From a virus (taxonomy: Duplodnaviria; Caudoviricetes), in the IMG/VR virus record IMGVR_UViG_3300035208_002849, positions 32,001 to 96,000 of that record: DNA of 64,000 bases. One strand, written 5' to 3'. Of this stretch, positions 1-61,390 are shown piece after piece. Each line of letters starts with the position of its first letter. Position 1 is the first letter of the stretch. The notes beneath the pieces are model-generated. The model was given only the letters and a program-made list of their open reading frames with translations, had not been told where the DNA came from and made no database searches. The position numbers and the translations under genes were made by a program.

Positions 1-12
1 TCCCTCAAGATT

Positions 13-987
13 TTATTTTCTGAATAGTTTCAGAAGAGCGGACAACCAACTGATTTTTTTCTTTGGTTGTTCCTCAACTACTGGAGTTGGGGCTGGAGCT
101 GAAGTTGGAACAATTACTGGCTTCTCAACTACTGGTTCAGTAACCGGATTCATCAACGATTCGAGAGAAATTTCTTCGCTCTCAGCTTCGACTTCTTCAC
201 CAGTAATTTTTTCCCACGCAAAATCAGGACCTAGATCCCATTTACCAGCCTTGCGGAAATTTACGTGAGTGCATATTCCCTTGAACTCCTTTGCCTCGGA
301 TGTAGATGCGAATGTTTCATATCGCTTATCTTCATCAAGGAATGTCTTAGGAATATTGTGTTCGATGCATAGGTAATCCAAAAGATTATTCAGAGCCTTG
401 TACTGCTCAGGTGTGAATGAAGCGAAATACTTATAACCTCGATATCCATCCTCAACAATGCTGTAATACTCAGGTTCATGAAGAGTGCAATACACATCTT
501 TCTTTGTCTTCTTAGTATCTCCATTTGAATCCTTGTAGGTGACCTGAGAATATATCGTCTCCAAATCTTCACCACGTAATGTCAAGGGTCCATAGTTAGA
601 CATTTCGATTGCAATGCTGCGTTGTGAGTTAGGCTTATTTCCACCTACCGCACCAGTACCAAGATGGTATGACCAATACTTAGGATCGAACAACTCATAT
701 ACCTCACCCGATCTTGCGATAACATAAGATACGCTCACATGATTGTCTTTGGTTGTTAATGATGCCATATCAGCACGTAGTGTACCTGCGGTTGAATGAA
801 TGACAATCATATCTTTCTTGGTTTCGGTCGCATAATAATACGAGTTGAAATTAGGTCGGATCTGGCGAATAGTTGTATCACCGCCAGCGATTACTATTGT
901 ATCGATTTCCTTGTATTTTACTTTACTCGTATTAGTCAGTTCGGTTCCGAATTTTGTTTCTTGTTCTGCAATAGCACTTGCTTTCAT
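13..987 (-). CDS. N-acetylmuramoyl-L-alanine amidase (Amidase_2), probable endolysin
   Basis: IVIHSTAG, VSYVIARSG, WSYHLG, N..SIAIEMSN, FTPEQYKAL and THVNF..KWDLG motifs; Pro/Glu-rich linker and basic amphipathic C-terminus. Confidence 0.85.
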   Translation of the reverse strand: MKASAIAEQETKFGTELTNTSKVKYKEIDTIVIAGGDTTIRQIRPNFNSYYYATETKKDMIVIHSTAGTLRADMASLTTKDNHVSVSYVIARSGEVYELFDPKYWSYHLGTGAVGGNKPNSQRSIAIEMSNYGPLTLRGEDLETIYSQVTYKDSNGDTKKTKKDVYCTLHEPEYYSIVEDGYRGYKYFASFTPEQYKALNNLLDYLCIEHNIPKTFLDEDKRYETFASTSEAKEFKGICTHVNFRKAGKWDLGPDFAWEKITGEEVEAESEEISLESLMNPVTEPVVEKPVIVPTSAPAPTPVVEEQPKKKISWLSALLKLFRK

Positions 988-14153: not shown

Positions 14154-14170
14154 TATGCACTCGCATTCTT

Positions 14171-17144: not shown

Positions 17145-17154
17145 AAACCTCGGA

Positions 17155-18354: not shown

Positions 18355-18359
18355 AACAA

Positions 18360-20525: not shown

Positions 20526-20611
20526 ACAAATCTACGGTTTATCGTACCTATAGTTTATAAAAAGAAAAAAGGACCATTTCTTTAAAAAATAGTCCTTTTC
20601 GAAGTGTGATA

Positions 20612-27185: not shown

Positions 27186-30100
27186 TTATCCTCCAATTAA
27201 CTGAGCACTAACAATGCTTGCAGTATCTCCAGTTCTTTGTACAGTTGTTCTAAGAGTGATGAACTCAGCAGTTCGTGTAGGCTGTAAGAAGATGTCAACA
27301 ATCAACTGGTTGGTATCGATGATATCAGCAGTGTTGTTGGTATCGTCACAGATACAGATACCTTCGGTCAAACCAGCAGGGTTAGCAGACTTGATGAGTT
27401 CAAGTTGTGCTTGAAGTTCTGCTGTGATTCCATTTCTCAGAGCAGGAGTATTCAACTGGAATACCTTACGATCCAAGAAATCGGCGAATCTCTTATGAAT
27501 ACCAGCAACCAACATGATTACGTTCAATCTGTTGAGAGCGGTCATTCTCTTAAGCATTGTCTTCTGACCATAGATGAACTGACCCTGATCGTTTACACGA
27601 GTTGGGTTGATGTTCGCATCGTACAGACGAGCGATGTCAGAAGTAGGATCGTCAGCATAGTTGTAAGTACGGATGTACTTCTGTCTGCTGGACAATGCCG
27701 CAGGGATTCTACCAGTTTCATAACCAGCAGGTGGCAACCAGTAAACATTCGCAGCTCTGTTAAGAGTGATGATTGCAGCGACTTCGATAGACTTAACTGC
27801 TTCAACATTCAACTTAGTGTAAACTGAGTCGAAGAAGATTGAGCGACCATCGAACAAAGCACCCCAGCGAGAGATATCTCCCTGAGAACCGATACCAACC
27901 ATCTTACGAAGAGCGACATCGATTTTCTTTTCATCAACACCATCAAAGATTGCGAAGCAGTCCTTTCTCTTTTCACATATATCAAGCATTGTATCCATTA
28001 CACTGTAGTTGATTGTTTCCATATTCTTAACGAACAGGTTGCTAATCGCAGTACCAGCAGCGATGAACATGTCAGCACGAGCTTCGTCCTTATTAAGGAA
28101 CAACTGCCATGCTTGACCGAGCATTGCCGAACCGTTGTTGTTGCGTGGGTCATATTCCCAAACCACATCATTCACGATAGCAGGATCGTTAGCATTGAAT
28201 GCAACTTGTACGAATTCACTTTCGATGTTTTCGTTATACAAACTCTGAGACAGATCGAAGTTAGGATCAAGGATCGCATTCTCAAGAGAGATGTTTTCAT
28301 TGATAACGAACTTCCAACCATTTGCTACATTGTTAGCCTGTTCCTTGATATCAAGGTTCAAGTCATTGTATACGTAAGGGACGATTGTACCGCTGAAGTT
28401 ATAAGTTTCACCACCGAAGTAGTATTCAACGATCAAAAAGATTCGAGCAACTGCTTCACCATCAGCGGTCAGTGTGAATACACGATCCTGATCGCCATCG
28501 AAATCGATGTCCTGATAATCTTCAACTGCGAGACCAAGGCTCAAGAATGTACGACCAACCGCATCGTCAAGAACGATACCATCAGTGGTTGTTGCAATAT
28601 CTTCCAGATCATTAGCAGTTGTCAAGTATGTCAAGCTGTTAGTGTTAACGAAAGAAGTTGCTGCATCCTGAGTAGCACTAGGAACAGTCAAATTGAACTT
28701 ACCAACGATGTCAAGTCTCAGTTTCTGATTACCATCATTAACAGTGAGAGATACCTTTGCAGTAGTAAGGTTAAGAACACGATAGAGAGTGTTTGTTGCA
28801 CTTACACCAGTGATCGAAATAGTATTACCAGTTGTAGCATCCTTAAGACCAATTGTGTCATTAGGAATGCTTACGGAAGCAACCTGATAGATTGTACCAG
28901 CGGTAAGACCGAGATCCGAGATTTTTTCACGGCCAGTTGCAGTTTCCAAGTCACTGAACATAACGTAATCATTGATGGAGAACTTAGATGCATAACCGTT
29001 GCTCAACTTAATCAAGTTGTTGGTAACATCAACCAACTTACCGTCAAACACGATCTTAGCTGAAGAAGTAGTTCCATAACCAGCGGTTGTCAATGCACTT
29101 GCAATATTGCGAAGGATTGCAGTCTGGTTGATAATTGTATTAATTCCAGTGCCATCATCCGTCAATGTAATTGCGGTTGCGTTGCCATCATTTGTTACAA
29201 GAGTGATGTCATCGCCATCAATTGCACTTACTAGATAATCGGTTCCAACTGCAAGAGGTGCAGGTAAATCAGGAGTAACAATCGAATTAGTCAATGTAAC
29301 AGCGTCACCAACAAGGAACTTAACACCAGTACCGGATGCGGCAGTGATGATAGTTGCATCAGTTGCATAATTGCTAGTGAATGTTGTATTCACAATCTCA
29401 ACGGCCAAATTACCAGAAGTAACGGTAGAGTCATTATCAAATTCGAGTGTGTACTCAGTGTTTGATGCATCAACTACAGAGAATGTATCACCATCATTTG
29501 CAGTCGTGATTACACTTGCACCACCAACGATTTCGAGGTAATCGTACTTCTTAGTAGCTTTACCAGTAGCAACGGTTTTAATGCTAAGATAGTCAACACC
29601 GCTTTCAGAAGTATCTTCATTCTTGAACACAGCACCAGTTGTTTCAGTACCGTATACAGTAGCTGAAGAAGTGTATGTAAATGTAGTTGTGGAAGTAACC
29701 GTGATGATCACATCTGATTCATTATAGTTCACAGTACCAGCGATTGTAACAGTGTCACCCGTGCTGAATCCATGAGGAGAAGCAGTGGTTACAGTAGCGA
29801 TGGTGCTATTAACAACGATAGAAGAGATCACAAATCGATCACCTGCACGAGTAGCAGCAGTAGGGTCACTGTTCATAATAGCGAACAATGCAACCTTATC
29901 GGTTCCACTATCATAGTCAGTCTGAGCATCTGCGTCAATTTCGAAATCCACATTGGTATTTTCAAGAAGGGTCTTGGCGATTGTGAGGATCTCACGCTTA
30001 CCCTTCTTGGTAGCAAGACCATCCAAGTAGTAACGAGTTGCTGCGTAGTATGAAATATCGAATGAAGTAGGAGCACCGTCAGAGAAATCATATTCTACCA

Positions 30101-45573: not shown

Positions 45574-46827
45574 TCAAAAGTATGGTCGGATTTCTTTTTT
45601 CTTTGTGTTTGATTTCATTTGCTCATTACGCTTACGATTTTTTTCTCGTCGCATTTTCTCACGATTTCCGTAAATCATAGTAAGCAATATCATTGCACCA
45701 TCTGCTTTCCTAATATATTTTTTTAGATCATCTAAAACTACAAAACCATCAGAATCAGTACGAAATGCATCAGTAAACATAACAGCATCATTCATGTCTT
45801 TAATAACACGTTGTTTACGCTCACCATTTTCATCAATGTAATACTCAAATTCAGGTAGCGGTTTTATAGTTCTCCAGTCGAACCAATTAAACCCTAGCTT
45901 CACCGTAGTCGGCATTTCATCATATCCGGGTTCATCATTATCCCATATCACAGTTCCATTATATGCATGTTCTGCAATGTGTGGATATTCCTTTAAAAAG
46001 GATAATAGATGCTTGGTTCCACCAAATGCAACCGAATTACGAACGAACGTTGAATCGATAGATCCTTCAAAGAGGAAAAATGGTTGGTTTACATTGATGA
46101 AATCAGCATTATACAATTCACGTTCCGCACCCTCAAGATTTCTATAACGAAGATTTGACTTCGGTGCAAGATCACGAGCATCGAATTGTACCCAATTACC
46201 ACCGTAAGTATAATATGGAATAATGAGCCGATTTCCATATTCATTTCCAGTAGGATACCCACGATCATTGTATATATAATGACCATTCGCATCAAGATCG
46301 AGAAATTTTTTATCTCGTAAGCAGACGAACCATCTATGATAAACCCTTTGAGGGATTTTACGTTTGATACAATAATCACGTGCGATTTTGCATGTTGGAT
46401 GATCTTCTAATATACCTATCAGTTCACCTTTCTTAAACTGGTATACTTCTTTTCCCTTGAATGATTTTTCGGCTTGAGACAATTCCTCTTGTTTCTTACG
46501 GTACTTCGATTCTCGCTTAGCTGAATTATCGAAGGCGTGAAAAATAACTCGGCGATACACTTCTCGATGATATTCTTTGAGAAAGTGAATGAAACTCATT
46601 GAACCACACTCATTATGACATTGATATCCCCAACCTCTTTTATACATAACGAACCCACGTTTCTTATGCGGATTATCTTTCGAGTCACCACATATAGGAC
46701 AACGGAAATTATATGGGGAACCATGTTCACCACCCGATAAATTTCTATCGCCAAGGGTTTCATGGACCGCATCATGAAGGATGTAATCCGGTATGCGGTC
46801 ATAGTCAAAATCAGAATCAAAGTCCAT
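45574..46827 (-). CDS. DNA primase (gp61-like)
   Basis: NFRCPICGDS..CHNEC zinc finger, RLIIP, FEGSIDS, WDND, KDMND (TOPRIM). Confidence 0.92.
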   Translation of the reverse strand: MDFDSDFDYDRIPDYILHDAVHETLGDRNLSGGEHGSPYNFRCPICGDSKDNPHKKRGFVMYKRGWGYQCHNECGSMSFIHFLKEYHREVYRRVIFHAFDNSAKRESKYRKKQEELSQAEKSFKGKEVYQFKKGELIGILEDHPTCKIARDYCIKRKIPQRVYHRWFVCLRDKKFLDLDANGHYIYNDRGYPTGNEYGNRLIIPYYTYGGNWVQFDARDLAPKSNLRYRNLEGAERELYNADFINVNQPFFLFEGSIDSTFVRNSVAFGGTKHLLSFLKEYPHIAEHAYNGTVIWDNDEPGYDEMPTTVKLGFNWFDWRTIKPLPEFEYYIDENGERKQRVIKDMNDAVMFTDAFRTDSDGFVVLDDLKKYIRKADGAMILLTMIYGNREKMRREKNRKRNEQMKSNTKKKEIRPYF

Positions 46828-47121: not shown

Positions 47122-48222
47122 TTAAAATGGTAAATCGTCATCATCAGAATCGGAAATATCATCGGTGTTTGTGGCTTCTTCGAAAACCTGAGCACCAACT
47201 GAAGGAGCACCATCATTCATATCGAATGGATCTTCCTCGGCTGCATCACCAGCAACTGCATTGTTTTCTTCCTTGGCTGCGAAGTAAGAAGAAGCATTGG
47301 CAGTCTTAACCTTAGGAGGAGCTGCGTCATTACCAGTACTCGATGCACGATCAGCAACAACACCATTAACAGCAGCAGCACGTTCCTTAGCCTCAACGAG
47401 GGCGATGAATTCGTTATACTGAGCCATCAGTTCTTCAGCACTAGGAATTGCACGATAACCGCTTAGATCATGACACTGATCCAGAATACCCATAATTTCT
47501 TCAGTAGTTGCGGCCAAGTCGGTAAGACCATCTTCGTCCCAGAAAGAACCGTCATACGTAGCATAGCCAGTCTTAGGATTCTTTTCAACGATAACGATTC
47601 GATCACGACCATTGCGTGGACTATGAGGAGTGAATTTTTCCTTCGACTTTCTCAGCGAGGACTTCGCTGGCTTCTGAGTGGCATTCTTTCCGTTTTCTTC
47701 TTCAGTAGAATCACGGAGAGGTTCCATCAAATTGCCATTAACGTTGTCAGTGTGATCCCACTTAAGAACCTTTCCATTGTTTGCAGGATTGGTCAAATCT
47801 TCACGCACGAGAACGTTGATTACGTGACGGGTAGTAGGGAGACGGCTCTTAGCAAGATTCTGCAACGCTTCGCCACGTGCTCCACCTGCGTCTTTACCAG
47901 CGTTCCAAATGGCCCATGCTGCTTCACAGACAGGACAATCTTCACCAATGGTCTTACGACAGGGGACATTTTTGGAAATCTTGTGTTTCTTGTCTTTCAG
48001 ATAATGCATCTGATAAGATACGGATGCGGGGAGCTTATTCTTCACCCCATTAACACCTTGAGGGAGTAGGCGAACCTTTGCTTCGTAAGGTTCATCATTG
48101 CGACCAAGTCCGGGTTTCCACATAGTGGGATCAATTTGACGACCACCGCTGGCTTCGACCTGTGCTCTTGCATCAATTGCGGATGCTTCTTCGGTATCTA
48201 TGGTAAGAAAATCTTCTGACAT
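47122..48222 (-). CDS. Single-stranded DNA-binding protein (gp32-like)
   Basis: WKP, VRLLP, C..TIGEDCPVC, NVLV.ED..NP.NNGKV, acidic DDDDLPF tail. Confidence 0.9.
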   Translation of the reverse strand: MSEDFLTIDTEEASAIDARAQVEASGGRQIDPTMWKPGLGRNDEPYEAKVRLLPQGVNGVKNKLPASVSYQMHYLKDKKHKISKNVPCRKTIGEDCPVCEAAWAIWNAGKDAGGARGEALQNLAKSRLPTTRHVINVLVREDLTNPANNGKVLKWDHTDNVNGNLMEPLRDSTEEENGKNATQKPAKSSLRKSKEKFTPHSPRNGRDRIVIVEKNPKTGYATYDGSFWDEDGLTDLAATTEEIMGILDQCHDLSGYRAIPSAEELMAQYNEFIALVEAKERAAAVNGVVADRASSTGNDAAPPKVKTANASSYFAAKEENNAVAGDAAEEDPFDMNDGAPSVGAQVFEEATNTDDISDSDDDDLPF

Positions 48223-49015: not shown

Positions 49016-49340
49016 TACTCTTTCTCCGTTGAGTAGGTCTTATGTGATAAGCTTCTTCCATTTCTGCTTTAACAATCTTTCTCAGTTTCGGACTAAGCAA
49101 TTGATGTACAAGTAAATCCATTTCAAAGAACTCTTGTAATGAAAGAATGATATGATACAATTTCACATCACGCTCTTTATATTTCTCATAAACCATGGTG
49201 ATTGCATAATTGAATTTTTCCACATTCTTCTTGAACTTGTGTTCGGGCATGTGTAATGTAAACGGATCAACATCATCTTCAGATCGTTTCGTCATTAGAA
49301 TGGTATTGATCTCATTTATAAAATTTAGACTAAGTGACAT
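48984..49340 (-). CDS. Late transcription co-activator gp33-like
   Basis: LLSPKLRKIVKAEMEEAYHIRP resembles the gp33 C-terminal helix; lies near gp32 as in T4. Confidence 0.45.
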   Translation of the reverse strand: MSLSLNFINEINTILMTKRSEDDVDPFTLHMPEHKFKKNVEKFNYAITMVYEKYKERDVKLYHIILSLQEFFEMDLLVHQLLSPKLRKIVKAEMEEAYHIRPTQRRKSNAQKASDTTE

Positions 49341-50896
49341 TAAAAAGGACTCCCAGAATCCCCATGATTCTGTTTGCTACTATCGGTATTAACTAATATA
49401 GTTTCTTCCGATCCTTTATTAACATCATTTCCAGTCTTAACAGTTGGTGCCCTTAATTCTTCCATCTTTTTACGCTGGGCTTCAATATCATCTCGTCTCT
49501 TAGATGGAGCAAGATCGGACCCATCTTTATCACTACGAGGCGAAAATGTCTCAACTTCACCACCGCTAGATAATTGTGCCTCTGAGTATGCTCTCATATC
49601 ATCTTCACTTGCGGTGCGAACACGCATATGACTATAATCGACTTTCGAGATACTGTTGATAGTATTTGGTCCAAATCGATTCTTCAGAATATTGTGAGAA
49701 AATAGAGCAAATGGTTTCATTTCGGGTGGCTGGTTGATAGTCATCATGAAATCAGCAGTATCATTGAGACCAGCACTACCAGCAACATGTTGCATCGAAG
49801 CTTCTTTGTTGCTATATCCATCACGATTCATCTGTGAAGCAGTCACCACAGCAATTTCACGAGCCTTTGCAAGGTCACGAAGCTGTTCCGCAATTTCTTT
49901 ACCCATTGTATACAAACTATGAGCGGCTACACTATTGGATCTCTTAGATGGTTTCATGATACCGATATAGTCAACTACGAGCAAATCAATATCGAATCCC
50001 TTCGTCCGTTTGACCTCGATGATTTCATTCTCAATGTCAACTACGGTGGCCGTAGTTGGAAGTGCTTTCACAACTAGATTACCAACCGAATGAGTATCTG
50101 CATCTGGGACTGTCTGTAAAAGTCTCTGAATATCTTCAGCAGAAGTGGCTCGAACTTCACCCAATGAAATATTAGTTACATTCGATGCAATGCGTTCCCA
50201 AATCAATTCTTCTGACATTTCGAGGGTAACATACAATACATTGTATCCCTTCTGATATGCAAACGCAGCTTCATTACATAGAACAATTGATTTACCCACA
50301 TTGGGCATACCAAGAAATATACTCAGAGCTTTACGATAATGTCCACCATACCCAGATCCGGTAGATGTAAACCTTCTCACATCAGCGAGTGCTGATGGGA
50401 TTGCACGTAAAGTCTCATTTAAACGTCTGAGTGCTTCAGGTGTATCTTCTACGACATCGATACCAACATCGAGGTTCATATTGAAATTCACCGAGTCCTG
50501 TAACTCTTTGATTATGGATGCGATATTAGTGAAATCTCTGTCATGAATTGCTTCAGCCGCATCAACCAATACTTTCTTCGTCTTTCGTTCCTTGAAAAAC
50601 TTCTCCAACATTTCCACAACGAAGTTGCGTTCCATTGGCTGTATATCAGCGTTGCAGATGTTAATCAGCTTGGATCGTTGACTACATGCAGGTAAAGCTG
50701 TTATAAGCTCCTGTGCCCCCGGATACCTGTTATTTGCCTTCTGGAAACGATTAATCCATTCGCATATCTTTCGGTTGTGGTCATCTTCGAATAAAGCAGA
50801 ATCTAAGTGTGGTGCAATTCGGTGCTGTAGAGAGTTGTCTTCAAAAAATTTTCTTATTACCAAGTCTTCGTTGGAAAGATCATATACTTTCAACAT
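49340..50896 (-). CDS. Replicative helicase (gp41/DnaB-like)
   Basis: GMPNVGKS, YVTLEMSE, VVDYIGIM, TASQMNR, TADF, LKNRFG. Confidence 0.92.
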   Translation of the reverse strand: MLKVYDLSNEDLVIRKFFEDNSLQHRIAPHLDSALFEDDHNRKICEWINRFQKANNRYPGAQELITALPACSQRSKLINICNADIQPMERNFVVEMLEKFFKERKTKKVLVDAAEAIHDRDFTNIASIIKELQDSVNFNMNLDVGIDVVEDTPEALRRLNETLRAIPSALADVRRFTSTGSGYGGHYRKALSIFLGMPNVGKSIVLCNEAAFAYQKGYNVLYVTLEMSEELIWERIASNVTNISLGEVRATSAEDIQRLLQTVPDADTHSVGNLVVKALPTTATVVDIENEIIEVKRTKGFDIDLLVVDYIGIMKPSKRSNSVAAHSLYTMGKEIAEQLRDLAKAREIAVVTASQMNRDGYSNKEASMQHVAGSAGLNDTADFMMTINQPPEMKPFALFSHNILKNRFGPNTINSISKVDYSHMRVRTASEDDMRAYSEAQLSSGGEVETFSPRSDKDGSDLAPSKRRDDIEAQRKKMEELRAPTVKTGNDVNKGSEETILVNTDSSKQNHGDSGSPF

Positions 50897-50936
50897 CGTG
50901 TTCTCCTTGCCTACAAATATACACAATTAAAAGAAA

Positions 50937-50999: not shown

Positions 51000-52217
51000 T
51001 TAATCATTCATATCGAATTCATCACCTTCTCCGGTGGAATCGGAGTAATCTACATCTGCATCCACGTCAAGGCTCTCTTCTTCGTTGGTATCATCGTCAT
51101 TATAATCAAAGTCAATTGGCTTTGTTAACTTCAAACGACTCTTGACGTATTCATTGACTTCATCGAAAATGGTTCCGATAGTCGATTTCTTATGAATGTC
51201 AGTTTCTTTAACAACTAACCACTTATCAGGGGTCAATTTAGGGTCTTTGATGACATACCAGTTATGTTTACCAGCTTTTTCTGGACCAACAACACCTTTG
51301 GCATCGAATTTGGATGACCACTTTTCGAGTAAGTTAGCAGCAAGGGCAAATTCATGCACGCCATACCACTTATTGAGGCCCTTTTCCCATGCGAGATACA
51401 TGGAAGCTTCCTGACCATCAATACACAGACGACTTTTGATGTTCTTTGCAGTGATAAGAGTACCTTTACGAACGGTTCCTTCCTTGTACTGCTTTTTACG
51501 CATACTCAAGATTACAGAAGCAGCGTATAGACCACCACTACCACCAGCAACCGTATTCGGGTCACCGTAACCACCGATGTTCTTATATACGTGGTTAGTA
51601 ATCAAAAGAGGACAATCAAGCTGACCGAGACGAACAAGAACCGACTTATAGAAGTGTTTAAGTTCCTTCTGCAAGCCCATGTTGTTCACGAAGTTTTCCT
51701 TCTTGATATCTTCCTGACCCTTAAGGCTGTCCAACATACCCTGTGAGTCGATTACGAATGCACACTTGTTGGGATTTTCCTTTTTGGTTCCCATTGCTTC
51801 TTCAAGTTGTGTCAAGATCTTATCGAAGTTGACCTTTAGTTTTTCAACAATAGACTGGGTAACAATCTTGAAAGAACCTTCGGGAAGACCGAATGCAATA
51901 AGATCATCATCAGTCAATGCGTTTTCGGTATCAATGTAATAGATAAAATATCCAGCTTCTACCAGAGGACGTGCAAATCCGTAAATGGCGAAGAATGTTT
52001 TACCTACAGCTTGCTCACCAGCAAGCATCACAGCACGATTGCCCGGAAATCCTTTAGTCATATCCCCCGAAATGAGGGCATTGAATGTATATGAACCAGT
52101 ATCGATCCAGTGCTTGATTTCCTTTTTGCGTCCACTATCGGCCAGTCGGTCACCAGTCTTCACATTACTGAAGAAACTGAAATCGGGAGCATCATCTTTC
52201 TTTTTCTTTGGTGGCAT
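51000..52217 (-). CDS. uvsX: RecA-like recombinase UvsX
   Basis: DTGSY..NALISG, AGEQAVGKT, IDTE, IDS, TNHVY, GGSG..YAAS, KSR. Confidence 0.92.
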   Translation of the reverse strand: MPPKKKKDDAPDFSFFSNVKTGDRLADSGRKKEIKHWIDTGSYTFNALISGDMTKGFPGNRAVMLAGEQAVGKTFFAIYGFARPLVEAGYFIYYIDTENALTDDDLIAFGLPEGSFKIVTQSIVEKLKVNFDKILTQLEEAMGTKKENPNKCAFVIDSQGMLDSLKGQEDIKKENFVNNMGLQKELKHFYKSVLVRLGQLDCPLLITNHVYKNIGGYGDPNTVAGGSGGLYAASVILSMRKKQYKEGTVRKGTLITAKNIKSRLCIDGQEASMYLAWEKGLNKWYGVHEFALAANLLEKWSSKFDAKGVVGPEKAGKHNWYVIKDPKLTPDKWLVVKETDIHKKSTIGTIFDEVNEYVKSRLKLTKPIDFDYNDDDTNEEESLDVDADVDYSDSTGEGDEFDMND

Positions 52218-52278: not shown

Positions 52279-53208
52279 TTATTTTAACAGATTTATACCA
52301 CCCTTTAATTCACTCAGAATTTTAGTTGAGTTGAATATTAGAGGGGTTATGAATATAGGGGTTCCTCTGTAGGATACCACATTATATGGAAGCCTTTCCC
52401 GACCTAGATTGATCGGTTTGGTTGTCAATAAGACATATGGTTCCGGTTTCTGTACCTTTTTTCCATGTGTATTTAATGAACCATTGAACTTCAATTCAAT
52501 TACAGGAACACCATCACGAACTCCAGTAACGATAACTCTAGCCTGTGTAGATCCATTATTGAAATTAACCACGTAATCAGCATCAATTCCATCATACACA
52601 TCTTGAATCAACCCAGTTGTAGGCTGCTTTATCATACGTAAGTAATTCTCAAGTTTTGCGTATCCAGTCAATAGATTCTTGTTTCCCTTGAATAAATGAA
52701 TTGTATTTAGATACCGTTTAATAATCGGTGCCAACATGTGTCCGTTATCAGTTGCAAGTCTATGCATGACTTTATGTATCATAGATGAGTTATCAGAAAC
52801 TTGTTGTTCAGCAAACGATATAATCTTCCCGATATTATCCTGAATACGATTCCCAGACAATTCATTGAATGGTCCTTTGAACTCTATAGAATCCACCACT
52901 GGAATATAGTTACTACCAAAATGCTCAAATCCATGAATTGCATTTCTGATATGATCTACATTCAATACGAAATCAAATGAATTCTTAACGATGTAAGTTT
53001 CGACACCCTTTGCGATAAGTCTAACACATGGAATTGAACTTTGTGCACCACGAGGATGATACATCTGAGAGAACTCAGCGGTCACGTATTTATATAGACC
53101 GCCATCCTTTTTTGTATATCCAAGTTCGGTGGCAATAGATAAATAATCACTCTGAGCATTATCAGTAAAAATTACCTGTGTATTCGAATCAATATTTTGA
53201 ACTATCAT
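52279..53208 (-). CDS. Hypothetical protein
   Basis: 309-aa ORF, ATGA-coupled to the giant gp25 gene. Confidence 0.7.
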   Translation of the reverse strand: MIVQNIDSNTQVIFTDNAQSDYLSIATELGYTKKDGGLYKYVTAEFSQMYHPRGAQSSIPCVRLIAKGVETYIVKNSFDFVLNVDHIRNAIHGFEHFGSNYIPVVDSIEFKGPFNELSGNRIQDNIGKIISFAEQQVSDNSSMIHKVMHRLATDNGHMLAPIIKRYLNTIHLFKGNKNLLTGYAKLENYLRMIKQPTTGLIQDVYDGIDADYVVNFNNGSTQARVIVTGVRDGVPVIELKFNGSLNTHGKKVQKPEPYVLLTTKPINLGRERLPYNVVSYRGTPIFITPLIFNSTKILSELKGGINLLK

Positions 53209-56200
53209 ATATTAGCTTCTCCGTTTCGCATAGATTTGAGGGAAATACCAATAACTCGTACACTACCGGATGGGACCAGTACTTTCAGAATAACCTTCGC
53301 ATCATTTTTGTCTGGATCGAATGATATAAAGGAGTCTTCCTCAACTATAGTGATACGAGGTTCAAATCGTTTTACTGCATCGACTATGCTTCGGATACTT
53401 TTCAACTCGAATTCATTTACATCATAAATAATGTTGTGTATGAAATCTTCTATATCAGTACCAAACTCTGGGTTAAATATGCGTTCACCGACACGAGTAA
53501 GCACAATGCTATATAGATTCTGAATCATACTATTTTCATCAACGATTTCAGAATATCCCGAATATCCCAAATCACGATTATATATAGCTGTACGTTCGGC
53601 ACCTCGTTCAAACGGAGATATACGACCAGAATTAGTAGTGGCTTTACCACGTTTATTTCTAGTGGCTGTATCCTGATTATCAATGAATTCTTCATTCTCA
53701 TAGAGAACGGTGAATTGATAGATATTGGATAGAGAACATTCTTCATACCCAGTATTAGTAGGACCAGTCTCAACTTGCACTGGACCACTAGTAGCACCGA
53801 ATGGAACGATCACCTGAATTGCACTTCTATTACCACCTACCACAGTTCCTACGATTCCATTAAAGGTTACTATGTTATTAACAGGAACGGGATTAAACTC
53901 ACCCAACGTAGCAGTAACAGTAACAAGACCACCAACATATTCAGAACTTGGTGATACTGAAATATATACAGGACATCCCGTCACAACATTGACTTGTCGA
54001 ATGGCAATCGATGAATTACCACATGGATCACTGGCAGTGTATGCAATATAATATGTACCCAGTACATTAGTATTAACGATACCCTGAGTAACGATACTGG
54101 AAGTAACATCACCATAGATGTTGTCAGTTGCCGTAGCACCGAGTTCAGTATAGCTTTCACCTTGAATAACTTCCATAATCTGATCGCCAATAATATTGAT
54201 GATCGGTGGAGTATTATCAAGAATCCCAGTAAGGGTGTTACTAATCATAGTAAGGCTATCTTGATTAACGGTCAGCGTGAAATTGAAATTACCATCAGGA
54301 GAACCAGATGCCACATATGCATTGATCGTAGTCATCGTTGATGATGTAATGCTTACTAGTGGATTCAAGAACTGACGATTTATGAACGACTCTTGTGCAA
54401 GATTAAGTCCAGTGAAATACACTTCTGAGTTATTGCTAATACATTCAGGGGTAATTGATGTAAGAACGGGCGGTTGAATGTAATTATTGTTGTCATCTAG
54501 ATCTCGTGCGTAAATGGTCATTATACCATCACCCAGTGAATCAACCGTTATTGTAAATGTTATCCCATCAGCAACTGAAGTCAGATTGCCAACCACGCCG
54601 AATGTAGAGTTCTCAATACTACCTTCAACAAACACACCAGCGGTGTAATTATTAGGAGCTTCAACTGGGTCAATGTTATCATCAATAACATGAACATTAA
54701 GTACAAAATTATTCTGATCCGTGATTGTATATCCAGTCACCTCGATGAATGGAGTTTCCACTGGAGGAACATCAGCAGTGGCATATGAACTATTACCAAG
54801 CTCATCAGCAGCATCAACACGGAATGTACCAACACCAGTGATATGTACTTCATAAATCAATACACGACCATCACCATTTACATCAACGATAGGAGTTGCA
54901 GTCTGTGTACCATTAACAAATGAAACTGAACTCTGGTCAATTGGGTAAATATCCGAAATTGTTACATTGATATCGACACCGGAACCAACGATAGTATCAA
55001 TCTCGAATTTAGGTGGGTAATCATCAAGTCTGATATGCGATAAATTTCCATAATCAGAACTATCGAATCCATTTTTCTGTACATACAAAGGAGTACTGTA
55101 GTTGTATACTACCATATTCATATCGACCGGAGATACATCCAATCCCAAAGCAGTTCCCATATATGTTGTTGATATCTGAATCTCAGTATCACTCCCGATC
55201 TGAGTAGCCGCAACTACGAAATACAGACACCCAACAAGTAGTGGATCATTCATATGATTGCCAGTAGAATTAAATACGATATTATCACCTATTTTTAATT
55301 CTGAATTAGCCACCAAAATAGTATCAGTGACATCATTAACACTTATCACATCGTATTCCAATTGTGTACCCGATGGAATTGAAATCGTAAATAGATTATT
55401 CCCAGCATCAATATCACCAATACCAACACTCTGAGTAATACCACCAGATATGACACCACCAGTAAGAAAATCATCAGCGATTATAGCTGTTAATGGACTA
55501 TCCACATTAAATCCAACTATATCAACAGTCATACCAGAAGTAACTACTTCACATGGTATACCACTCTCATGTCCATAATGATACATAAGCAATGGAGGTG
55601 CAATAATCGAACTTTGATTTCCAGTAGCATCCTTTACCGAAACATCGAAATAACCATCATCAAGGTCATTCAAAACGAAATCAAATGAAGTTTGGGTGGA
55701 TGGAGACTTAACTATGTTCGTAGGAGTTACTATGGTATGCGAAGCAGTTTTTCGAATAATTAAATCAGCGGGATCATCTGACATTTCAACATCATCAATA
55801 CCAACAGCCGATACTTCAATAACATTATACTGAACTATCACACCACCATTATCAATAACAACTGACGTATTACCCGGAATATTTATATAGAATGCATTAG
55901 TTGTGGGTGAATATCCGCCTCCTAATACGGAAGTTCCAAATGCTTGATAAGTTGGCGTAATAACATCTACCAGATCCCCAGCAGACATATGATGAGCAGT
56001 TCCCATATCCACCAGAATATTTCCAACACCATCACCTTGTGATGTAACAACTGATAGCGTATTCGTAGCATTTGTCAAATGAATAGTCGGCGGATATTGG
56101 TCAGCAACCACACCCGAACTCACTACAATATATGGTTTGTATTCGACAGTCTCACTACTCCAATACACATTACTCTGACTATTTACTGTGGCTACTTTCA

Positions 56201-57728
56201 CAAATCCCACATCAGGAACATGCTCTCCAGTAATCCAAGAACTGATCTTATCAACGTCAACATCGAATTTAGTATAGGTATTATTTTCACCAGTTGACAC
56301 GTTAATAAAATTATATAAACCAATTGGGTCTGCCTCATCAATTAAAGGGTTAATTGTATCCCAAGTGTCCGAATTCGACCAGCTATCAGAAGTCATTTGA
56401 TACAATGTCATCACCGCATCGCCATCACTACCAGATGCATAGATTGCATTTATTTCAGCAAAAATAAGTTCTGACAATGGTATACCAGCAATAGGGAATC
56501 GGAATACCATTCGCTGGTAATTAGGTGGAGTATTTGACGCAAAATTTCTAACAAGCAACTGAGTCGATGCACCATAATCATTTGCAATAAGGTTATCAAT
56601 ATACGTGTCCTTATCAGCATATCGCAAATATGTGAAAGATGTATGATCGTCATATAGTAACGGCTCATATCCAGCAATGTAATTTACTGATATCGCACCA
56701 GAAGGTGGTTTACTCGAATACAAAATTCGACCAACGGTTTCCAATGTACTTGATGTATTTCCGGTTATAGTACATACAACAGATGTGCTACTATTTCGTG
56801 TAATTACAGTTAACTGAGCACCATCATAATTACTCGTACCCTCAATTGCAATTACATCATCAACTTGAAGAGAGTGGTTACGAGCAGTTTCAATTGTAAC
56901 AGATCCAGCACCATCGCCCTGAATAGAAGTTATTGCTTGTTCATATACGAACACTTCCCAGAATTCAACTCTACCAGTTGAACTATGTGTGGCTGCGGTA
57001 ACTTCATGTTTCGTTATATATTGGAATGTACTAGCTCCGGTAACAGTAATGGTGAATGTACCTTCATATCGCTCACCAGCATTACCAAATTGGCGAGGGT
57101 CAGAATTCAATCCTGTAATAAACACAGCATCACCAGTTGAAAATCCATGACTACCACTGGTTGTTACGGTTACGACATTACCAACGGATGAGATTGATGA
57201 CATATTTATGGTACGTGTGTTATCTCGTTTCTCAAATACCCATGTCAACGGATTAGTAGCGGTCGTACTGGCTTCAATAAATGAATATGATTCACGAGTA
57301 TCATTATATCGACCCAATTTGTGATCGCCATTCCAATATCCCATGAGTTTTCCGCTTCCTTGGTAGGTAAGCGGAGTCGATGCATTCAGCGTGGCCGTAG
57401 GTAGCCATGCAATTACTTCAGATGCAAATTTATTCGTGTCAATACGAGGAGGACGAATATCATTCATCCAATCATCATACCCAGCACTTAGGATCTGACC
57501 AACAGCAGCACCCTGAAAAATTTGAAATTCTCGCAAAGCGTAATATCCAATATCGGACAATACAGTGAGGGAATAATGGTGATTAAAGAAGCCTCTTAGA
57601 CGAAAATCCTGCAAATCATACGAACCATCATCAATACGCTCAAATGCAAATTCGAGACCATACTTAGTATAGTCTCCGGTAGTTCCATCAATCTGACTAC
57701 CAGTTTCAGTAATTCTAATTTCTAACAT
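53205..57728 (-). CDS. Giant multidomain virion protein with C-terminal gp25 (sheath initiator) domain
   Basis: C-terminal QNLYSIVLTRVGERIFNPEFG..AVKRFEPRI; Ig-like DUF5011-type, IPT/TIG-like, DNRLRE/CBM-like and HGFSTGD modules; late promoter at 57750-57758. Confidence 0.8.
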   Translation of the reverse strand: MLEIRITETGSQIDGTTGDYTKYGLEFAFERIDDGSYDLQDFRLRGFFNHHYSLTVLSDIGYYALREFQIFQGAAVGQILSAGYDDWMNDIRPPRIDTNKFASEVIAWLPTATLNASTPLTYQGSGKLMGYWNGDHKLGRYNDTRESYSFIEASTTATNPLTWVFEKRDNTRTINMSSISSVGNVVTVTTSGSHGFSTGDAVFITGLNSDPRQFGNAGERYEGTFTITVTGASTFQYITKHEVTAATHSSTGRVEFWEVFVYEQAITSIQGDGAGSVTIETARNHSLQVDDVIAIEGTSNYDGAQLTVITRNSSTSVVCTITGNTSSTLETVGRILYSSKPPSGAISVNYIAGYEPLLYDDHTSFTYLRYADKDTYIDNLIANDYGASTQLLVRNFASNTPPNYQRMVFRFPIAGIPLSELIFAEINAIYASGSDGDAVMTLYQMTSDSWSNSDTWDTINPLIDEADPIGLYNFINVSTGENNTYTKFDVDVDKISSWITGEHVPDVGFVKVATVNSQSNVYWSSETVEYKPYIVVSSGVVADQYPPTIHLTNATNTLSVVTSQGDGVGNILVDMGTAHHMSAGDLVDVITPTYQAFGTSVLGGGYSPTTNAFYINIPGNTSVVIDNGGVIVQYNVIEVSAVGIDDVEMSDDPADLIIRKTASHTIVTPTNIVKSPSTQTSFDFVLNDLDDGYFDVSVKDATGNQSSIIAPPLLMYHYGHESGIPCEVVTSGMTVDIVGFNVDSPLTAIIADDFLTGGVISGGITQSVGIGDIDAGNNLFTISIPSGTQLEYDVISVNDVTDTILVANSELKIGDNIVFNSTGNHMNDPLLVGCLYFVVAATQIGSDTEIQISTTYMGTALGLDVSPVDMNMVVYNYSTPLYVQKNGFDSSDYGNLSHIRLDDYPPKFEIDTIVGSGVDINVTISDIYPIDQSSVSFVNGTQTATPIVDVNGDGRVLIYEVHITGVGTFRVDAADELGNSSYATADVPPVETPFIEVTGYTITDQNNFVLNVHVIDDNIDPVEAPNNYTAGVFVEGSIENSTFGVVGNLTSVADGITFTITVDSLGDGIMTIYARDLDDNNNYIQPPVLTSITPECISNNSEVYFTGLNLAQESFINRQFLNPLVSITSSTMTTINAYVASGSPDGNFNFTLTVNQDSLTMISNTLTGILDNTPPIINIIGDQIMEVIQGESYTELGATATDNIYGDVTSSIVTQGIVNTNVLGTYYIAYTASDPCGNSSIAIRQVNVVTGCPVYISVSPSSEYVGGLVTVTATLGEFNPVPVNNIVTFNGIVGTVVGGNRSAIQVIVPFGATSGPVQVETGPTNTGYEECSLSNIYQFTVLYENEEFIDNQDTATRNKRGKATTNSGRISPFERGAERTAIYNRDLGYSGYSEIVDENSMIQNLYSIVLTRVGERIFNPEFGTDIEDFIHNIIYDVNEFELKSIRSIVDAVKRFEPRITIVEEDSFISFDPDKNDAKVILKVLVPSGSVRVIGISLKSMRNGEANI

Positions 57729-57789
57729 TGGAAAACGCTGTTTTTCTATAGTTTATAAGAAAAATACGTTTCTTTTGTTACCGATTTCG

Positions 57790-58569
57790 TTAAAACTGAA
57801 TCTTAGAAAGATATCTATCTGATATTTGTTTGTAGTTGGTGGCTGCGGTTCGGGTATAATCTTGCCATTTACCATTACCAAGAAGGGTGAGTACGCCATC
57901 ACCAAGTCGATCATAAGGCAATTCGATGATTGAATTCCCTAAATAGTTATATTCACTCTTCTCACTCACTACACACCGAGAATTGATAACAGGATAGAAC
58001 ATACGAACTTGTTCCTGTTTCGCATTGTCGCTTCCATGCACATTCAAAATGATTTTGCTTCGAGCAATGTATGAGTCCAGTTCCTGTCCCCACACTCCAT
58101 ACAAATCAAATAGTTTGTATCGACCAGCAAGTTTCTGCTGTAAATAAAACACCAACTTGGCTCGTCTCTCATGTAGATATCCATAAAACAGAATATCGAT
58201 GTCAGGTGATGGATTCGATGGAATCACTTGAAGTGACCTAGTATACAGCATGGGTACGAACTTAGCATTGAGTTTGAAATTTTGACGCAACCACTGTATG
58301 TTGGCATAGTCATAGTCCCAAATTTCATGAGCCTGTTTCAGCATCTCGTATGCATGACGATTCGCCCAATAAGAGCCATCAAATAACTGTTCTAGTTGAT
58401 AGATAATGATCCGATACCCCGGATACTTCTGACGCACATCATTAAGATCTTTCAGTACATTATATCCAAGAACAAAAACGGTTCGATTGTACGCTGGATT
58501 CGATCCTACGTATTCACGCAACATTGCTTCGACATGGTCGAATACATGATTATAACGATAGACTTCCAC
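57790..58569 (-). CDS. Glycosyltransferase (GT-B, Glyco_trans_1-like)
   Basis: DIDILFYG...RR, ARSKIILNVH, EQVRMFY..SRCVVSE. Confidence 0.75.
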   Translation of the reverse strand: MEVYRYNHVFDHVEAMLREYVGSNPAYNRTVFVLGYNVLKDLNDVRQKYPGYRIIIYQLEQLFDGSYWANRHAYEMLKQAHEIWDYDYANIQWLRQNFKLNAKFVPMLYTRSLQVIPSNPSPDIDILFYGYLHERRAKLVFYLQQKLAGRYKLFDLYGVWGQELDSYIARSKIILNVHGSDNAKQEQVRMFYPVINSRCVVSEKSEYNYLGNSIIELPYDRLGDGVLTLLGNGKWQDYTRTAATNYKQISDRYLSKIQF

Positions 58570-60382: not shown

Positions 60383-61390
60383 TCAATTACCACAATTCCA
60401 TTCGAGATCTCGAAGTTTTTGGTATAAATCAACTTCTTCTTCAGTTGGAGTGGTTGGCACCAATACATTAAATGATAAGAACAGTGCCCCATCTTTGATT
60501 CCCTGTTTGTTCAGCTTAATCTTGGCCCCTGAGCCAGTACATGGCGGTATTACCGCTTTTATATCTCGACCAAAGAACTTAAGATTCAATTCACGGCCTA
60601 GAACCAAATCAGATGGTGTAACATCAATCGATGTAAAAATATCATTACCGACACGTTCGAAATGGGAATCAGGAGTAACTTGTACATATACAATGATATC
60701 ACCATTCTGACCACCGTTTTTACCAGCACTTCCGAGACCACTTAAGGTAATGAATTCACCATCAGATATCCCAGCGGGTATTTTAATCTTAGTTTGTTTC
60801 GTATCTGGTAATGTTGTCTGGCCTTTACATAAAGTACAAGGAGTATCAATAACCAATCCGCTCCCATCACAAGTGTAACATGATTCGACTACAAGGCCAT
60901 CACCTGCAATGAAACTATCCTTACGTGCTACTCGGACTACACCCTTTCCATCACAAGTCGGACACTTTTTCTGAACACTAGCTCCAGTCCCATCACACAT
61001 AGGGCATTTTTTACGCCGGGAAATCTCAACTGTTTTCTCCACGCCAGTAATCGATTCATCAAAATTTATCTTAAAATTTACTCGTTGATCAGGACCTTTA
61101 CTTGGACCCTTGCGTCTGGCTTTCTGACCAAAATTCGCCGCTGTATTAGCTGCCCCAAATGCTTCCCCCCATCGTTTGAAATCATGGGAAAATGACATTT
61201 TATTGTCGTATTCCTTTCGTTTATCAGAATCGGACAATACTGCGTTAGCTTCGTTCACTTCTTTGAACTTATCTTCATCACCGGGATTTTTATCTGGGTG
61301 ATATTTAACAGCAAGTTTTTTATAAGCGGTTTTAATTTCAGCCTGTGTTGCACTGCGTTCTACACCAAGTATTCTGTAATAATCAATCAT
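60383..61390 (-). CDS. dnaJ: DnaJ chaperone (class A)
   Basis: J-domain with HPD, four CxxCxGxG-type repeats, C-terminal substrate domain. Confidence 0.92.

What the first reader, a model, noticed from the sequence alone, without database searches (positions are those of the whole stretch)
53205..57728. gp25 fused to about 1370 aa of adhesin-like domains
Seen: only the last ~130 aa are gp25-like. Upstream are repeated TVTT..HGFSTGD.V.ITG-type beta modules, a DKDTYID..NDYG..QLLV (DNRLRE/CBM96-like) domain, several Ig-like repeats (DxxPP; DATGN, DELGN, DPCGN), a DUF5011-like repeat and an IPT/TIG-like domain. Known: gp25 is normally a ~130-aa sheath initiator. Inference: the sheath/baseplate junction displays long glycan-binding arms, an unusual place for a host-attachment device.
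Basis: partly seen in the sequence, partly recalled or inferred. Interest (0 to 1): 0.7.

Follow-up and report, generated by a model that had tools for sequence, protein, structure and literature searches.

The report
Giant modular gp25 sheath-initiator protein
In this uncultured T4-like giant phage the small baseplate protein that starts tail-sheath assembly (gp25) carries a real, conserved 1,380-residue N-terminal arm with sugar-binding-like domains. It belongs to a large, apparently undescribed clade in which this arm ranges from about 100 to 1,540 residues.

Summary
Window 53205-57728(-) is one intact 1507-aa ORF behind a conserved late-type promoter. Residues 1381-1507 are a complete gp25/TssE module: profile E 1e-9 to T4 gp25, the YEPR motif is invariant, and the fold gives Z 8-10.5 to about a dozen solved sheath initiators.

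The N-terminal part contains:
- a compact head: a CBM3-like sandwich with two nested FCCH-like barrels, plus a CBM96-like jelly roll
- a third FCCH barrel
- about 530 aa of unresolved modules
- a PF16403 Ig domain
- an IPT/TIG domain
- a disordered linker

The fusion is not an artefact. Sixteen full-length homologues (42-89% identity) come from independent assemblies with the same gene order. An exhaustive profile search finds about 80 clusters with this gp25 type, always at the extreme C-terminus, in proteins of 220-1666 aa. The minimal form is TIG-gp25. The orthologous locus encodes 331-, ~790- and ~1500-aa versions.

No second gp25 is found in six partial genomes. No cultured phage has a close relative.

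Glycan binding and host attachment remain inferred. Conservation is uniform along the arm, which fits generic adhesion or decoration better than a fast-evolving receptor tip.

Verdict: new variant of a known kind, moderately high interest.

The parts
57750..57758 (-). Late-promoter-like motif TTATAAACT, 22 nt upstream of the ATG
   Evidence: 15 exact copies in the window against 0.9 expected by chance. TATAAACTA sits at the same distance upstream of the orthologous gene in all long-form loci and in the short-form locus L008.
53205..57728 (-). Intact ORF for the 1507-aa extended gp25 (P0001)
   Evidence: Sixteen full-length homologues at 42-89% identity.
57225..57728 (-). Residues 1-168: CBM3-like beta sandwich. 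A closing strand returns near residue 340.
   Evidence: AF2 model of residues 1-565 has pTM 0.80. VIA-align Z 14.5, rmsd 2.5 A, 146 residues aligned to CBM3b 2XBT over model range 1..342. Foldseek gives CBM3 hits at E 2e-5.
56694..57224 (-). Residues 169-345: two E1-FCCH-like beta barrels (the 'TVTT..HGFSTGD' modules), nested in the CBM3-like sandwich
   Evidence: Z 9.3 to E1 FCCH 4P22 and Z 9.7 to the phi92 endosialidase barrel. Pfam E1_FCCH matches 10 of 17 members, best E 1e-6. hhalign between barrels 1 and 2 gives 95% probability.
56103..56693 (-). Residues 346-542: CBM96-like jelly roll
   Evidence: Z 13.4 to 8WAB (chondroitin-sulfate-binding CBM) and Z 10.7 to 7VBO. 7VBO is the founding CBM96 structure (PMC9971899). 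Pfam CBM96 matches only 1 of 17 members, E 0.003.
55809..56102 (-). Residues 543-640: third FCCH-like barrel (about 557-632)
   Evidence: hhalign between FCCH2 and this segment gives 99.1% probability, E 6e-19. The FCCH2 HMM hits 559-631 in ORF numbering (567-639 in the stop-to-stop frame) at iE 1e-6.
54219..55808 (-). Residues 641-1170: about six further modules of 80-100 aa; fold not established
   Evidence: Only weak internal similarities, 41-68% probability. The best PDB match is an Ig domain at E 0.033 for residues 927-1008. The ESM Atlas lead scored 0.77. Conserved in all long forms.
53979..54218 (-). Residues 1171-1250: bacterial surface Ig-like domain (PF16403, formerly DUF5011)
   Evidence: Pfam 61.1 bits, E 1e-16, above the 27-bit cut-off. 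Present in 17 of 17 members. PDB profile hits to 2KPN and Chitinase 60 Ig domains.
53694..53978 (-). Residues 1251-1345: IPT/TIG domain, the one extension module shared by nearly all clade members
   Evidence: Model pLDDT about 85. Z 11.9 to alpha-amylase domain D (1QHP), and Z 9-10 to plexin and Met IPT and CAMTA1 TIG domains. TIG-gp25 is the minimal architecture in the clade.
53589..53693 (-). Residues 1346-1380: linker of variable length, predicted disordered
   Evidence: pLDDT below 50 for model residues 96-146. Length and sequence vary among relatives. Lowest identity of all segments, 0.41.
53208..53588 (-). Residues 1381-1507: complete gp25/TssE sheath-initiator module with invariant YEPR
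   Evidence: E1456 and R1458 are invariant and align with T4 'NYEPRI'.
53205..53208 (-). ATGA stop/start overlap with the downstream 309-aa ORF
   Evidence: Read directly from the sequence. The same abutting arrangement is found in all relatives.
52279..53208 (-). Conserved 309-aa partner ORF of unknown function, always directly downstream of the gp25 gene
   Evidence: Present next to short, mid and long gp25 forms. No Pfam, PHROG, PDB or Atlas match.
29628..29828 (-). FCCH-like module inserted in the 1085-aa tail sheath (sheath residues about 206-272), the same module type as in the gp25 arm
   Evidence: BLASTP gives 55% identity over 31 aa, E 2e-4. The FCCH2 HMM scores iE 1e-6 and this is the only other hit in the 131-kb record. 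Sheath proteins from other phages also carry the module.

Best explanation
This gene encodes the phage's own gp25, the sheath-polymerisation initiator and a wedge subunit present in six copies per baseplate.

The C-terminal 127 residues do the conserved job. They dock on the wedge core through the YEPR region and start the first sheath ring. This role is inferred from homology.

A flexible linker of 35-50 residues joins the start of that module to a single-chain arm. The arm is a string of about nine small beta modules: TIG, PF16403 Ig, six unresolved modules and one FCCH barrel. It ends in a compact 540-residue head built from two carbohydrate-binding-module folds (CBM3-like and CBM96-like) and two nested FCCH barrels.

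The arm most likely leaves the baseplate-sheath junction and sits on the outside of the tail. There, six arms would give low-specificity, reversible adhesion to polysaccharide, such as host capsule, LPS, EPS or surrounding matrix. They would supplement the true fibres rather than replace them.

My odds for the separate steps are:
- real gene and real gp25: about 0.9
- the only gp25 in the genome: about 0.75
- externally displayed: about 0.7
- binds glycans: about 0.5
For: The gene is real:
- The ORF is intact.
- Sixteen full-length homologues at 42-89% identity come from JGI, ENA and Logan assemblies.
- Gene order is conserved: DnaJ-orf109-orf220-orf212-orf259-gp25-orf309-uvsX-gp41-gp32.
- A late-type promoter motif is conserved upstream.

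It is a gp25:
- Profile E 1e-9 to T4 gp25 over nearly its whole length, with YEPR aligned.
- A classical-gp25 HMM scores E 5e-24.
- Fold Z 8-10.5 to pyocin R2, Afp9, Pvc9, KP1, TssE, diffocin and others.
- Sheath and tube genes lie in the same window.

It is the orthologous, single copy:
- The same locus encodes 331-aa, ~790-aa and ~1500-aa forms.
- No other gp25 is found in six records of 84-165 kb with Pfam, or in the own record with two custom HMMs.
- No close stand-alone form exists among 5.8 billion proteins apart from one fragment.

The arm is displayed outside:
- The linker is disordered.
- The roughly 100-aa N-terminal extension of PlPVC1 Pvc9 protrudes over the wedge and faces outward (bioRxiv 10.1101/2025.04.20.649488).
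- The FCCH module is also an insertion in this phage's sheath and in other phage sheaths.

It may bind glycans:
- CBM3-like fold Z 14.5; CBM96-like fold Z 13.4 and 10.7.
- The PF16403 and IPT domains are typical of surface glycan-binding proteins.
- BFVD matches are to phage fibre and baseplate-periphery proteins, though with low TM-scores.
Against: - No binding data exist, and a shared fold does not show function.
- No CBM family is matched convincingly by sequence.
- Conservation is uniform along the arm with no variable tip. The protein co-diverges with neighbouring core genes. Both are atypical for a host-range determinant.
- All six genomes examined are only 20-44% complete and lack a detectable gp6. 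A second, divergent gp25 elsewhere in the genome therefore cannot be excluded.
- I did not check on coordinates where the gp25 N-terminus lies in a T4-type baseplate.
- The fold of residues 641-1170 is unverified.
Confidence: 0.5

Rival explanations
1. The arm is a structural decoration and not an adhesin. It lies along the baseplate rim or the first sheath rings and acts as a brace or shield. In effect the 'zeroth' sheath ring is dressed with the same surface modules as the sheath, with no role in binding the host.
For: Conservation is uniform and there is no variable tip. The FCCH module is shared with the sheath insertion and with the sheaths of other phages. The minimal TIG-gp25 forms show that the long arm is dispensable in relatives. 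The protein co-diverges with core genes.
Against: Two CBM-type folds form a compact distal head, which is the arrangement seen in binding proteins. The disordered linker suggests a tethered, mobile arm rather than a fixed brace.
Confidence: 0.25
2. The protein is a precursor that is cut in the linker. Cleavage would release a normal-sized gp25 and a separate 1,350-aa surface protein in 1:1 ratio.
For: A 35-50 aa disordered linker of variable length with basic residues lies exactly at the domain border.
Against: No protease motif or autoproteolytic domain was found. Parts of the linker and the first gp25 residues are among the most conserved in the protein (S1367, F1373, AIYNRD), which suggests an interface rather than a scissile spacer. 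Forms as short as about 240 aa keep the same layout.
Confidence: 0.07
3. A separate classical gp25 exists in the unsampled part of the roughly 400-kb genome. This protein would then be a paralogue that uses its gp25 fold to attach elsewhere, for example onto sheath subunits.
For: The record is only about 31% complete and contains no detectable gp6 wedge gene. The same holds for five relatives.
Against: YEPR and the whole gp25 length are conserved as in T4. The locus is orthologous across the clade and, as in T4-like phages, lies next to recombination genes. Only one gp25 hit was found in each of six records. The clade-specific gp25 type is essentially never found stand-alone.
Confidence: 0.1
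4. The fusion is an assembly or gene-calling artefact.
For: None found. Read-level support could not be inspected.
Against: The same architecture occurs in at least 17 diverged proteins from independent assemblies and sources and in about 80 clusters overall. The reading frame is continuous with conserved junction residues. There is no internal start with a ribosome-binding site before the gp25 module.
Confidence: 0.01

Closest known systems
T4 gp25 (PDB 5IW9, 5IV5) and T6SS TssE: sheath-polymerisation initiator, PF04965
   Same: Residues 1381-1507 align with T4 gp25 residues 33-129 at E 1e-9, including the YEPR motif. The fold is the same. The gene sits in a T4-like genome with sheath, tube, UvsX, gp41, gp32 and gp43 and lies next to recombination genes, as T4-type gene 25 does.
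   Different: T4 gp25 is a 132-aa single-domain protein. This one is 1507 aa, with about 1,345 aa of folded modules and a linker in front of the gp25 module.
PlPVC1 Pvc9 (PDB 9QGL chain 9A, 239 aa) and the phi812 gp25-like chain (9EUF_L, 212 aa)
   Same: Both are gp25 homologues with an N-terminal extension. The Pvc9 extension protrudes over the wedge proteins, faces the outside of the particle, and was predicted by its authors to contact carbohydrate.
   Different: Their extensions are about 85-130 aa and form a single small domain. Here the extension is ten times longer, multi-domain and highly variable in length within one clade.
Ig-like and CBM decorations on phage structural proteins, such as T4 Hoc and Ig domains on tail tube or sheath proteins (recalled from the literature, not tested here)
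   Same: Single-chain strings of small beta domains appended to a structural anchor, and thought to give weak carbohydrate adhesion. PF16403, TIG and FCCH modules also occur in this phage's sheath and in other phage sheaths.
   Different: The anchor here is the inner-baseplate sheath initiator, not a capsid, tube or sheath subunit. The arm ends in a compact two-CBM head.
CBM96 (7VBO, alginate-binding; related to the DNRLRE domain) and CBM3 (2XBT)
   Same: Same folds: Z 10.7-13.4 for residues 360-539 and Z 14.5 for residues 1-168 plus about 340. 7VBO is the founding CBM96 structure.
   Different: There is no convincing sequence membership. The ligand is unknown. The CBM3-like sandwich carries two nested FCCH barrels.

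Membership tests
gp25 / TssE / GPW sheath initiator (PF04965) | Significant sequence match to family profiles | tested here: met
   PHROG 261 E 1.4e-12. HMM of 63 classical gp25 proteins E 5e-24. Family profile against T4 gp25 E 1e-9. Pfam itself is below its cut-off for this protein (20.4 against 27.2 bits) but above it in 3 of 5 relatives.
gp25 / TssE / GPW sheath initiator (PF04965) | gp25 fold | tested here: met
   AF2 model pLDDT about 80 for the module. Z 10.5 to pyocin R2, 10.4 to 2IA7, 9.8 to Pvc9 and Afp9, 9.6 to KP1, 8.5 to TssE. Foldseek hits T4 gp25 at E 7e-4, TMt 0.54.
gp25 / TssE / GPW sheath initiator (PF04965) | Conserved Glu-Pro-Arg motif. From my own knowledge this is the wedge core-bundle contact; I could not find a paper in the library to confirm it. 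| tested here: met
   E1456 and R1458 are invariant in 17 of 17 sequences. 'YEPR' aligns with T4 'NYEPRI' and with KP1 and Pvc9.
gp25 / TssE / GPW sheath initiator (PF04965) | Encoded by a genome with a contractile sheath and tube | tested here: met
   Sheath at 27186-30443. gp19-like tube at 26499-27179.
gp25 / TssE / GPW sheath initiator (PF04965) | Small single-domain protein of about 100-150 aa | tested here: not met
   1507 aa. The gp25 module is only the last 127 residues.
gp25 / TssE / GPW sheath initiator (PF04965) | Six copies in the baseplate, strand exchange with the first sheath ring | not testable with these tools
   Needs cryo-EM or proteomics of virions.
CBM96 / DNRLRE domain | Jelly-roll fold of the founding member 7VBO | tested here: met
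   Z 10.7 to 7VBO (148 residues aligned) and Z 13.4 to 8WAB, for residues 360-539. The identity of 7VBO was confirmed.
CBM96 / DNRLRE domain | Sequence match to PF24517 or NF033679 | tested here: not met
   PF24517 matches only 1 of 17 members at E 0.003 and does not match this protein. No NCBIfam hit at E 0.1 in six clade members.
CBM96 / DNRLRE domain | Binds a polysaccharide | not testable with these tools
   Needs a binding assay.
CBM3 | Nine-stranded beta-sandwich fold | tested here: met
   Z 14.5, rmsd 2.5 A, 146 of 158 residues aligned to 2XBT. Foldseek E 2e-5.
CBM3 | Sequence match to the Pfam CBM_3 family | tested here: not met
   No such hit at E 1 in this protein or at E 0.05 in the 17 family members.
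Bacterial surface Ig-like domain (PF16403) | Match above the gathering score | tested here: met
   61.1 bits against a 27-bit cut-off, residues 1177-1248. Present in 17 of 17 members.
IPT/TIG domain (PF01833) | Fold and sequence match | tested here: inconclusive
   The fold is clearly IPT-like, Z 9-12. By sequence there is only a weak TIG hit in one relative, E 0.011.
Phage receptor-binding protein or tail fibre | Distal tip more variable than the anchor | tested here: not met
   Mean pairwise identity is 0.49 for the head domains and 0.57 for gp25. The profile is flat along the protein.
Phage receptor-binding protein or tail fibre | Binds a host receptor; usually trimeric | not testable with these tools
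   No assay or complex prediction was available.

The most novel reading that the evidence does not exclude
The six arms act as receptor sensors wired directly to the sheath initiator. Binding or tension on an arm would be passed through the linker to gp25 itself, biasing or triggering sheath contraction without the usual path from fibres through the peripheral baseplate to the wedge. The clade-wide variation in arm length, from about 100 to 1,540 aa, would then be tuning of this sensor to different cell-surface layers.
Probability: 0.1. Interest if true: 0.85.

Novelty: new variant of a known kind. Interest (0 to 1): 0.6.

Why it matters
gp25/TssE is one of the most conserved and size-constrained parts of all contractile injection machines. 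It is treated as a small internal adaptor. This work shows a whole clade of uncultured T4-like giant phages in which it serves as a modular display platform. About 80 clusters at 50% identity carry extensions from one TIG domain up to about 1,540 residues.

This changes what can be expected at the sheath-baseplate junction. It gives a natural example of large cargo tolerated on the gp25 N-terminus, which is useful for engineering phage tails, pyocins or PVC-like injectors. It also flags a candidate adhesion device that fibre-based host-range prediction would miss.

Tried and rejected
- **Close relatives in cultured phages.** megablast found nothing. tblastn with the whole protein hit only an Ig domain in an Alteromonas phage. 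The C-terminal part hit only T4-like gp25 at 29-34% identity.
- **Nested stand-alone gp25 from an internal start.** The only in-frame Met, M1401, lies inside the invariant DENSMIQN block and has no ribosome-binding site. Rejected.
- **ORF 16719-17144 (141 aa) as a hidden gp25.** hhalign probability 0.8% and no Pfam hit. Rejected.
- **orf309 and orf259 as homologues of T4 UvsY or gp26.** hhalign probability below 0.2%. No PDB, Pfam, PHROG or Atlas hit.
- **gp6 (Baseplate_J) in six records.** None found. The wedge cluster is either outside these fragments or too diverged to detect.
- **The 365-kb contig that carries P0014.** It could not be reached: the look-up showed shorter copies, and Logan contigs cannot be searched as handles.
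- **Fold of residues 641-1170.** hhalign against the known Ig and TIG segments gave only 41-68% probability. The ESM Atlas scored 0.77, a lead only.
- **DNRLRE by NCBIfam.** No hit.
- **Literature.** No paper in the library describes a large gp25 fusion. Searches for the 'EPR motif' found nothing, so that point rests on my own knowledge.
- **'Moraphages' as the lineage.** The moraphages of PMC12619734 (DnaJ-encoding, Bacteroidota hosts) may be this lineage, but no shared identifiers were found. Untested.
Full report
**What is there.** Window 53205-57728 on the minus strand is one uninterrupted ORF of 1507 codons. It sits in a block of minus-strand genes of a T4-like myovirus:
- UvsX-like recombinase at 51000-52217
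- gp41-type helicase at 49340-50926
- gp32 at 47122-48222
- primase at 45574-46827
- gp43 polymerase at 34525-37383
- a 1085-aa tail sheath at 27186-30443, with the gp19-like tube just downstream

The window is part of a 131-kb IMG/VR record that CheckV rates about 31% complete, so the phage is probably a jumbo phage of about 400 kb. Its polymerase is only about 28% identical to those of the nearest isolates, which are cyanomyoviruses. There is no nucleotide-level relative in the phage collection.

**Expression signals.** The motif TTATAAACT lies 22 nt upstream of the ATG. It occurs 15 times in the window against 0.9 expected. TATAAACTA is at the same distance upstream of the orthologous gene in every long-form relative and in a short-form relative, although the surrounding intergenic DNA has diverged. 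It resembles the T4 late promoter TATAAATA (own knowledge), so the gene is probably a late, structural gene. Its stop overlaps the start of a conserved 309-aa ORF in an ATGA.

**The C-terminus is a real gp25.**
- PHROG baseplate-wedge families match residues 1394-1479 at E 1e-12 and 7e-9.
- Pfam GPW_gp25 is below its cut-off in this protein. It matches all 17 family members and passes the cut-off in relatives.
- A profile of the last 133 residues hits T4 gp25 at E 1e-9 over T4 residues 33-129. It also hits Klebsiella phage KP1 gp25, Pvc9, Afp9 and other sheath initiators. The family's invariant YEPR aligns with T4 NYEPRI.
- An HMM built from 63 classical ~125-aa gp25 proteins scores the ORF at E 5e-24.
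- In the AlphaFold model of residues 1250-1507 the module has pLDDT about 80. It superposes on gp25-type chains from about a dozen solved baseplates at Z 8-10.5 (Foldseek).
- The module covers the full length of T4 gp25, so the extension is attached exactly at the N-terminus of a complete gp25.

**The N-terminal 1,380 residues.** The model of residues 1-565 is compact, pTM 0.80.
- Residues 1-168, plus a strand near 340, form a CBM3-like sandwich: Z 14.5, 146 residues aligned.
- Two E1-FCCH-like beta barrels at 169-258 and 259-345 are nested in it. Evidence: Z about 9; Pfam E1_FCCH in 10 of 17 members.
- Residues 346-542 are a jelly roll. It is closest to a chondroitin-sulfate-binding CBM (8WAB, Z 13.4) and to 7VBO (Z 10.7). 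7VBO is the founding CBM96 structure and is related to DNRLRE domains (PMC9971899).
- Sequence-level membership of CBM96/DNRLRE is not supported.
- A third FCCH barrel lies at about 557-632: hhalign 99%.
- Residues 1177-1248 are a PF16403 (ex-DUF5011) Ig domain, E 1e-16.
- Residues 1251-1345 are an IPT/TIG domain, Z 9-12.
- Residues 1346-1395 are predicted disordered and vary in length among relatives.
- Residues 641-1170 contain about six conserved modules whose Ig-like nature I could not establish.

**Not an artefact, and not unique.** Sixteen proteins of 1490-1554 aa align end to end at 42-89% identity. They come from contigs assembled independently by JGI, ENA and Logan.

The neighbourhood is the same everywhere: DnaJ-orf109-orf220-orf212-orf259-gp25-orf309-uvsX-gp41-gp32. 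In that same orthologous slot, other members of the lineage encode shorter versions:
- a 331-aa version (one FCCH barrel apparently nested in TIG, then gp25; locus L008)
- 750-800-aa versions (head, TIG, gp25; loci L009-L012)

An exhaustive HMMER search of 1.84 billion representatives with the gp25-module profile gives a sharp picture. About 80 clusters score E below 1e-17. In all of them the module is at the extreme C-terminus, and the proteins are 220-1666 aa long. Classical ~125-aa gp25 proteins appear only from about E 1e-15 on.

Domain mapping of these proteins shows four recurring architectures:
- TIG-gp25, about 230-260 aa
- PF16403 repeats followed by gp25, about 400-440 aa
- head-TIG-gp25, about 730-800 aa
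- long forms of 1320-1670 aa

Some intermediate lengths are N-truncated fragments, as their near-identical long neighbours in the tree show. In a quick maximum-likelihood tree the extended clade is separated from classical gp25 by a branch with 98% SH-aLRT support. The window's protein falls in a group of 14 long forms. Length classes are clustered but need several changes.

A word-based search for stand-alone proteins close to this gp25 module found only one fragment on a 1.5-kb contig. No cultured phage carries a close relative.

**Is it the only gp25?** Pfam finds one hit, the fused gene, in the own record and in each of five related records of 84-165 kb. Two custom HMMs run over all six-frame ORFs of the own record find nothing else; the next best E is 0.1. 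A 141-aa ORF in a putative tail operon is not gp25-like. However, all these records are 20-44% complete and none shows a gp6 gene. A second gp25 in unsampled DNA cannot be excluded. The 365-kb contig that could settle this was out of reach.

**How it most likely works.** Shown: a complete gp25 module, a disordered tether, a chain of small beta modules, and a compact head with two CBM folds.

Inferred: the gp25 module occupies the usual place, six per baseplate, bridging the wedge core and the first sheath ring. The tether lets the arm exit to the outside. Two things support external display:
- In the PlPVC1 injection system the ~100-aa N-terminal extension of the gp25 homologue Pvc9 protrudes over the wedge and is exposed on the particle surface. 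The phi812 homologue also has an N-terminal extension.
- The FCCH module of the arm is also inserted in this phage's sheath and in the sheaths of other phages.

The CBM folds and the Ig and IPT modules suggest reversible binding to polysaccharide.

Against a classical host-range determinant, identity is flat along the protein at 0.40-0.62 per domain. The protein also diverges in step with its neighbours. I therefore favour generic glycan adhesion by six single-chain arms (about 0.5). Pure decoration or bracing comes next (about 0.25). Cleavage into two proteins and a paralogue role are minor rivals.

**Comparison with known systems.** It works like gp25/TssE at its C-terminus and meets every testable family criterion except size. 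I found no description of a gp25 with more than about 130 extra residues in the structures matched or in the literature searched. The finding is best classed as a new variant of a known kind. More precisely, it is one long member of an undescribed, widespread clade of N-terminally extended, modular gp25 proteins in uncultured T4-like jumbo phages. The earlier notes of this scan on the late-promoter motif and on modules shared with the sheath were tested here and hold.

Noticed in passing
window 52279-53208 (-): A 309-aa ORF of unknown function is always directly downstream of the gp25 gene, with a stop/start overlap. This holds next to short, mid and long gp25 forms, down to 20% identity. It is a likely functional partner. 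It has no Pfam, PHROG, PDB or Atlas match and no similarity to T4-type gp26 or UvsY.
   Followed up: partly
window 57790-58569 (-): The 259-aa ORF directly upstream of gp25 is more conserved than gp25 itself (75% mean column identity across 6 loci). It has no family match. I found no Pfam or PDB support, although a neighbouring ORF in one relative (L024 2381-3145) has a weak Glyco_tranf_2_3 hit.
   Followed up: partly
window 27186-30443 (-), module at about 29628-29828: The tail sheath is 1085 aa, against about 660 aa in T4, and carries an FCCH-like barrel of the same type as the gp25 arm. Sheath proteins of other uncultured phages (P0173, P0174) carry it too. The FCCH barrel behaves as an insertion module: it is nested in a CBM3-like sandwich, in a TIG domain (L008, P0033) and in sheaths.
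   Followed up: partly
window 12330-20560 (-): A putative tail or baseplate operon lies behind a late-promoter motif at 20552-20560. It holds a 721-aa protein with a peptidase/lysin-like region (PHROG E 2e-18), then ORFs of 399, 141, 436, 412 and 607 aa with no family matches. The 141-aa ORF (16719-17144) has a LysM-like look by eye; this is unverified.
   Followed up: partly
window 11824-12330 (-): A 168-aa ORF with a TnsA-like endonuclease N-terminal domain (Pfam E 7.5e-16) sits at the end of the putative tail operon. It could be a homing or mobile endonuclease.
   Followed up: no
window 57729-57760 and upstream regions of loci L003-L025: No Shine-Dalgarno-like sequence precedes the gp25 start in any locus. 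Together with the phage DnaJ gene (60383-61390) this fits a Bacteroidota host. It also fits the DnaJ-encoding 'moraphage' lineage of PMC12619734. That link was not tested.
   Followed up: no
loci L009, L010, L012 (mid-length forms): The sub-lineage with ~750-800-aa gp25 lacks the TATAAACTA motif upstream of the gene and has a different upstream gene set between DnaJ and gp25. It is probably a distinct phage group with different late promoters.
   Followed up: no
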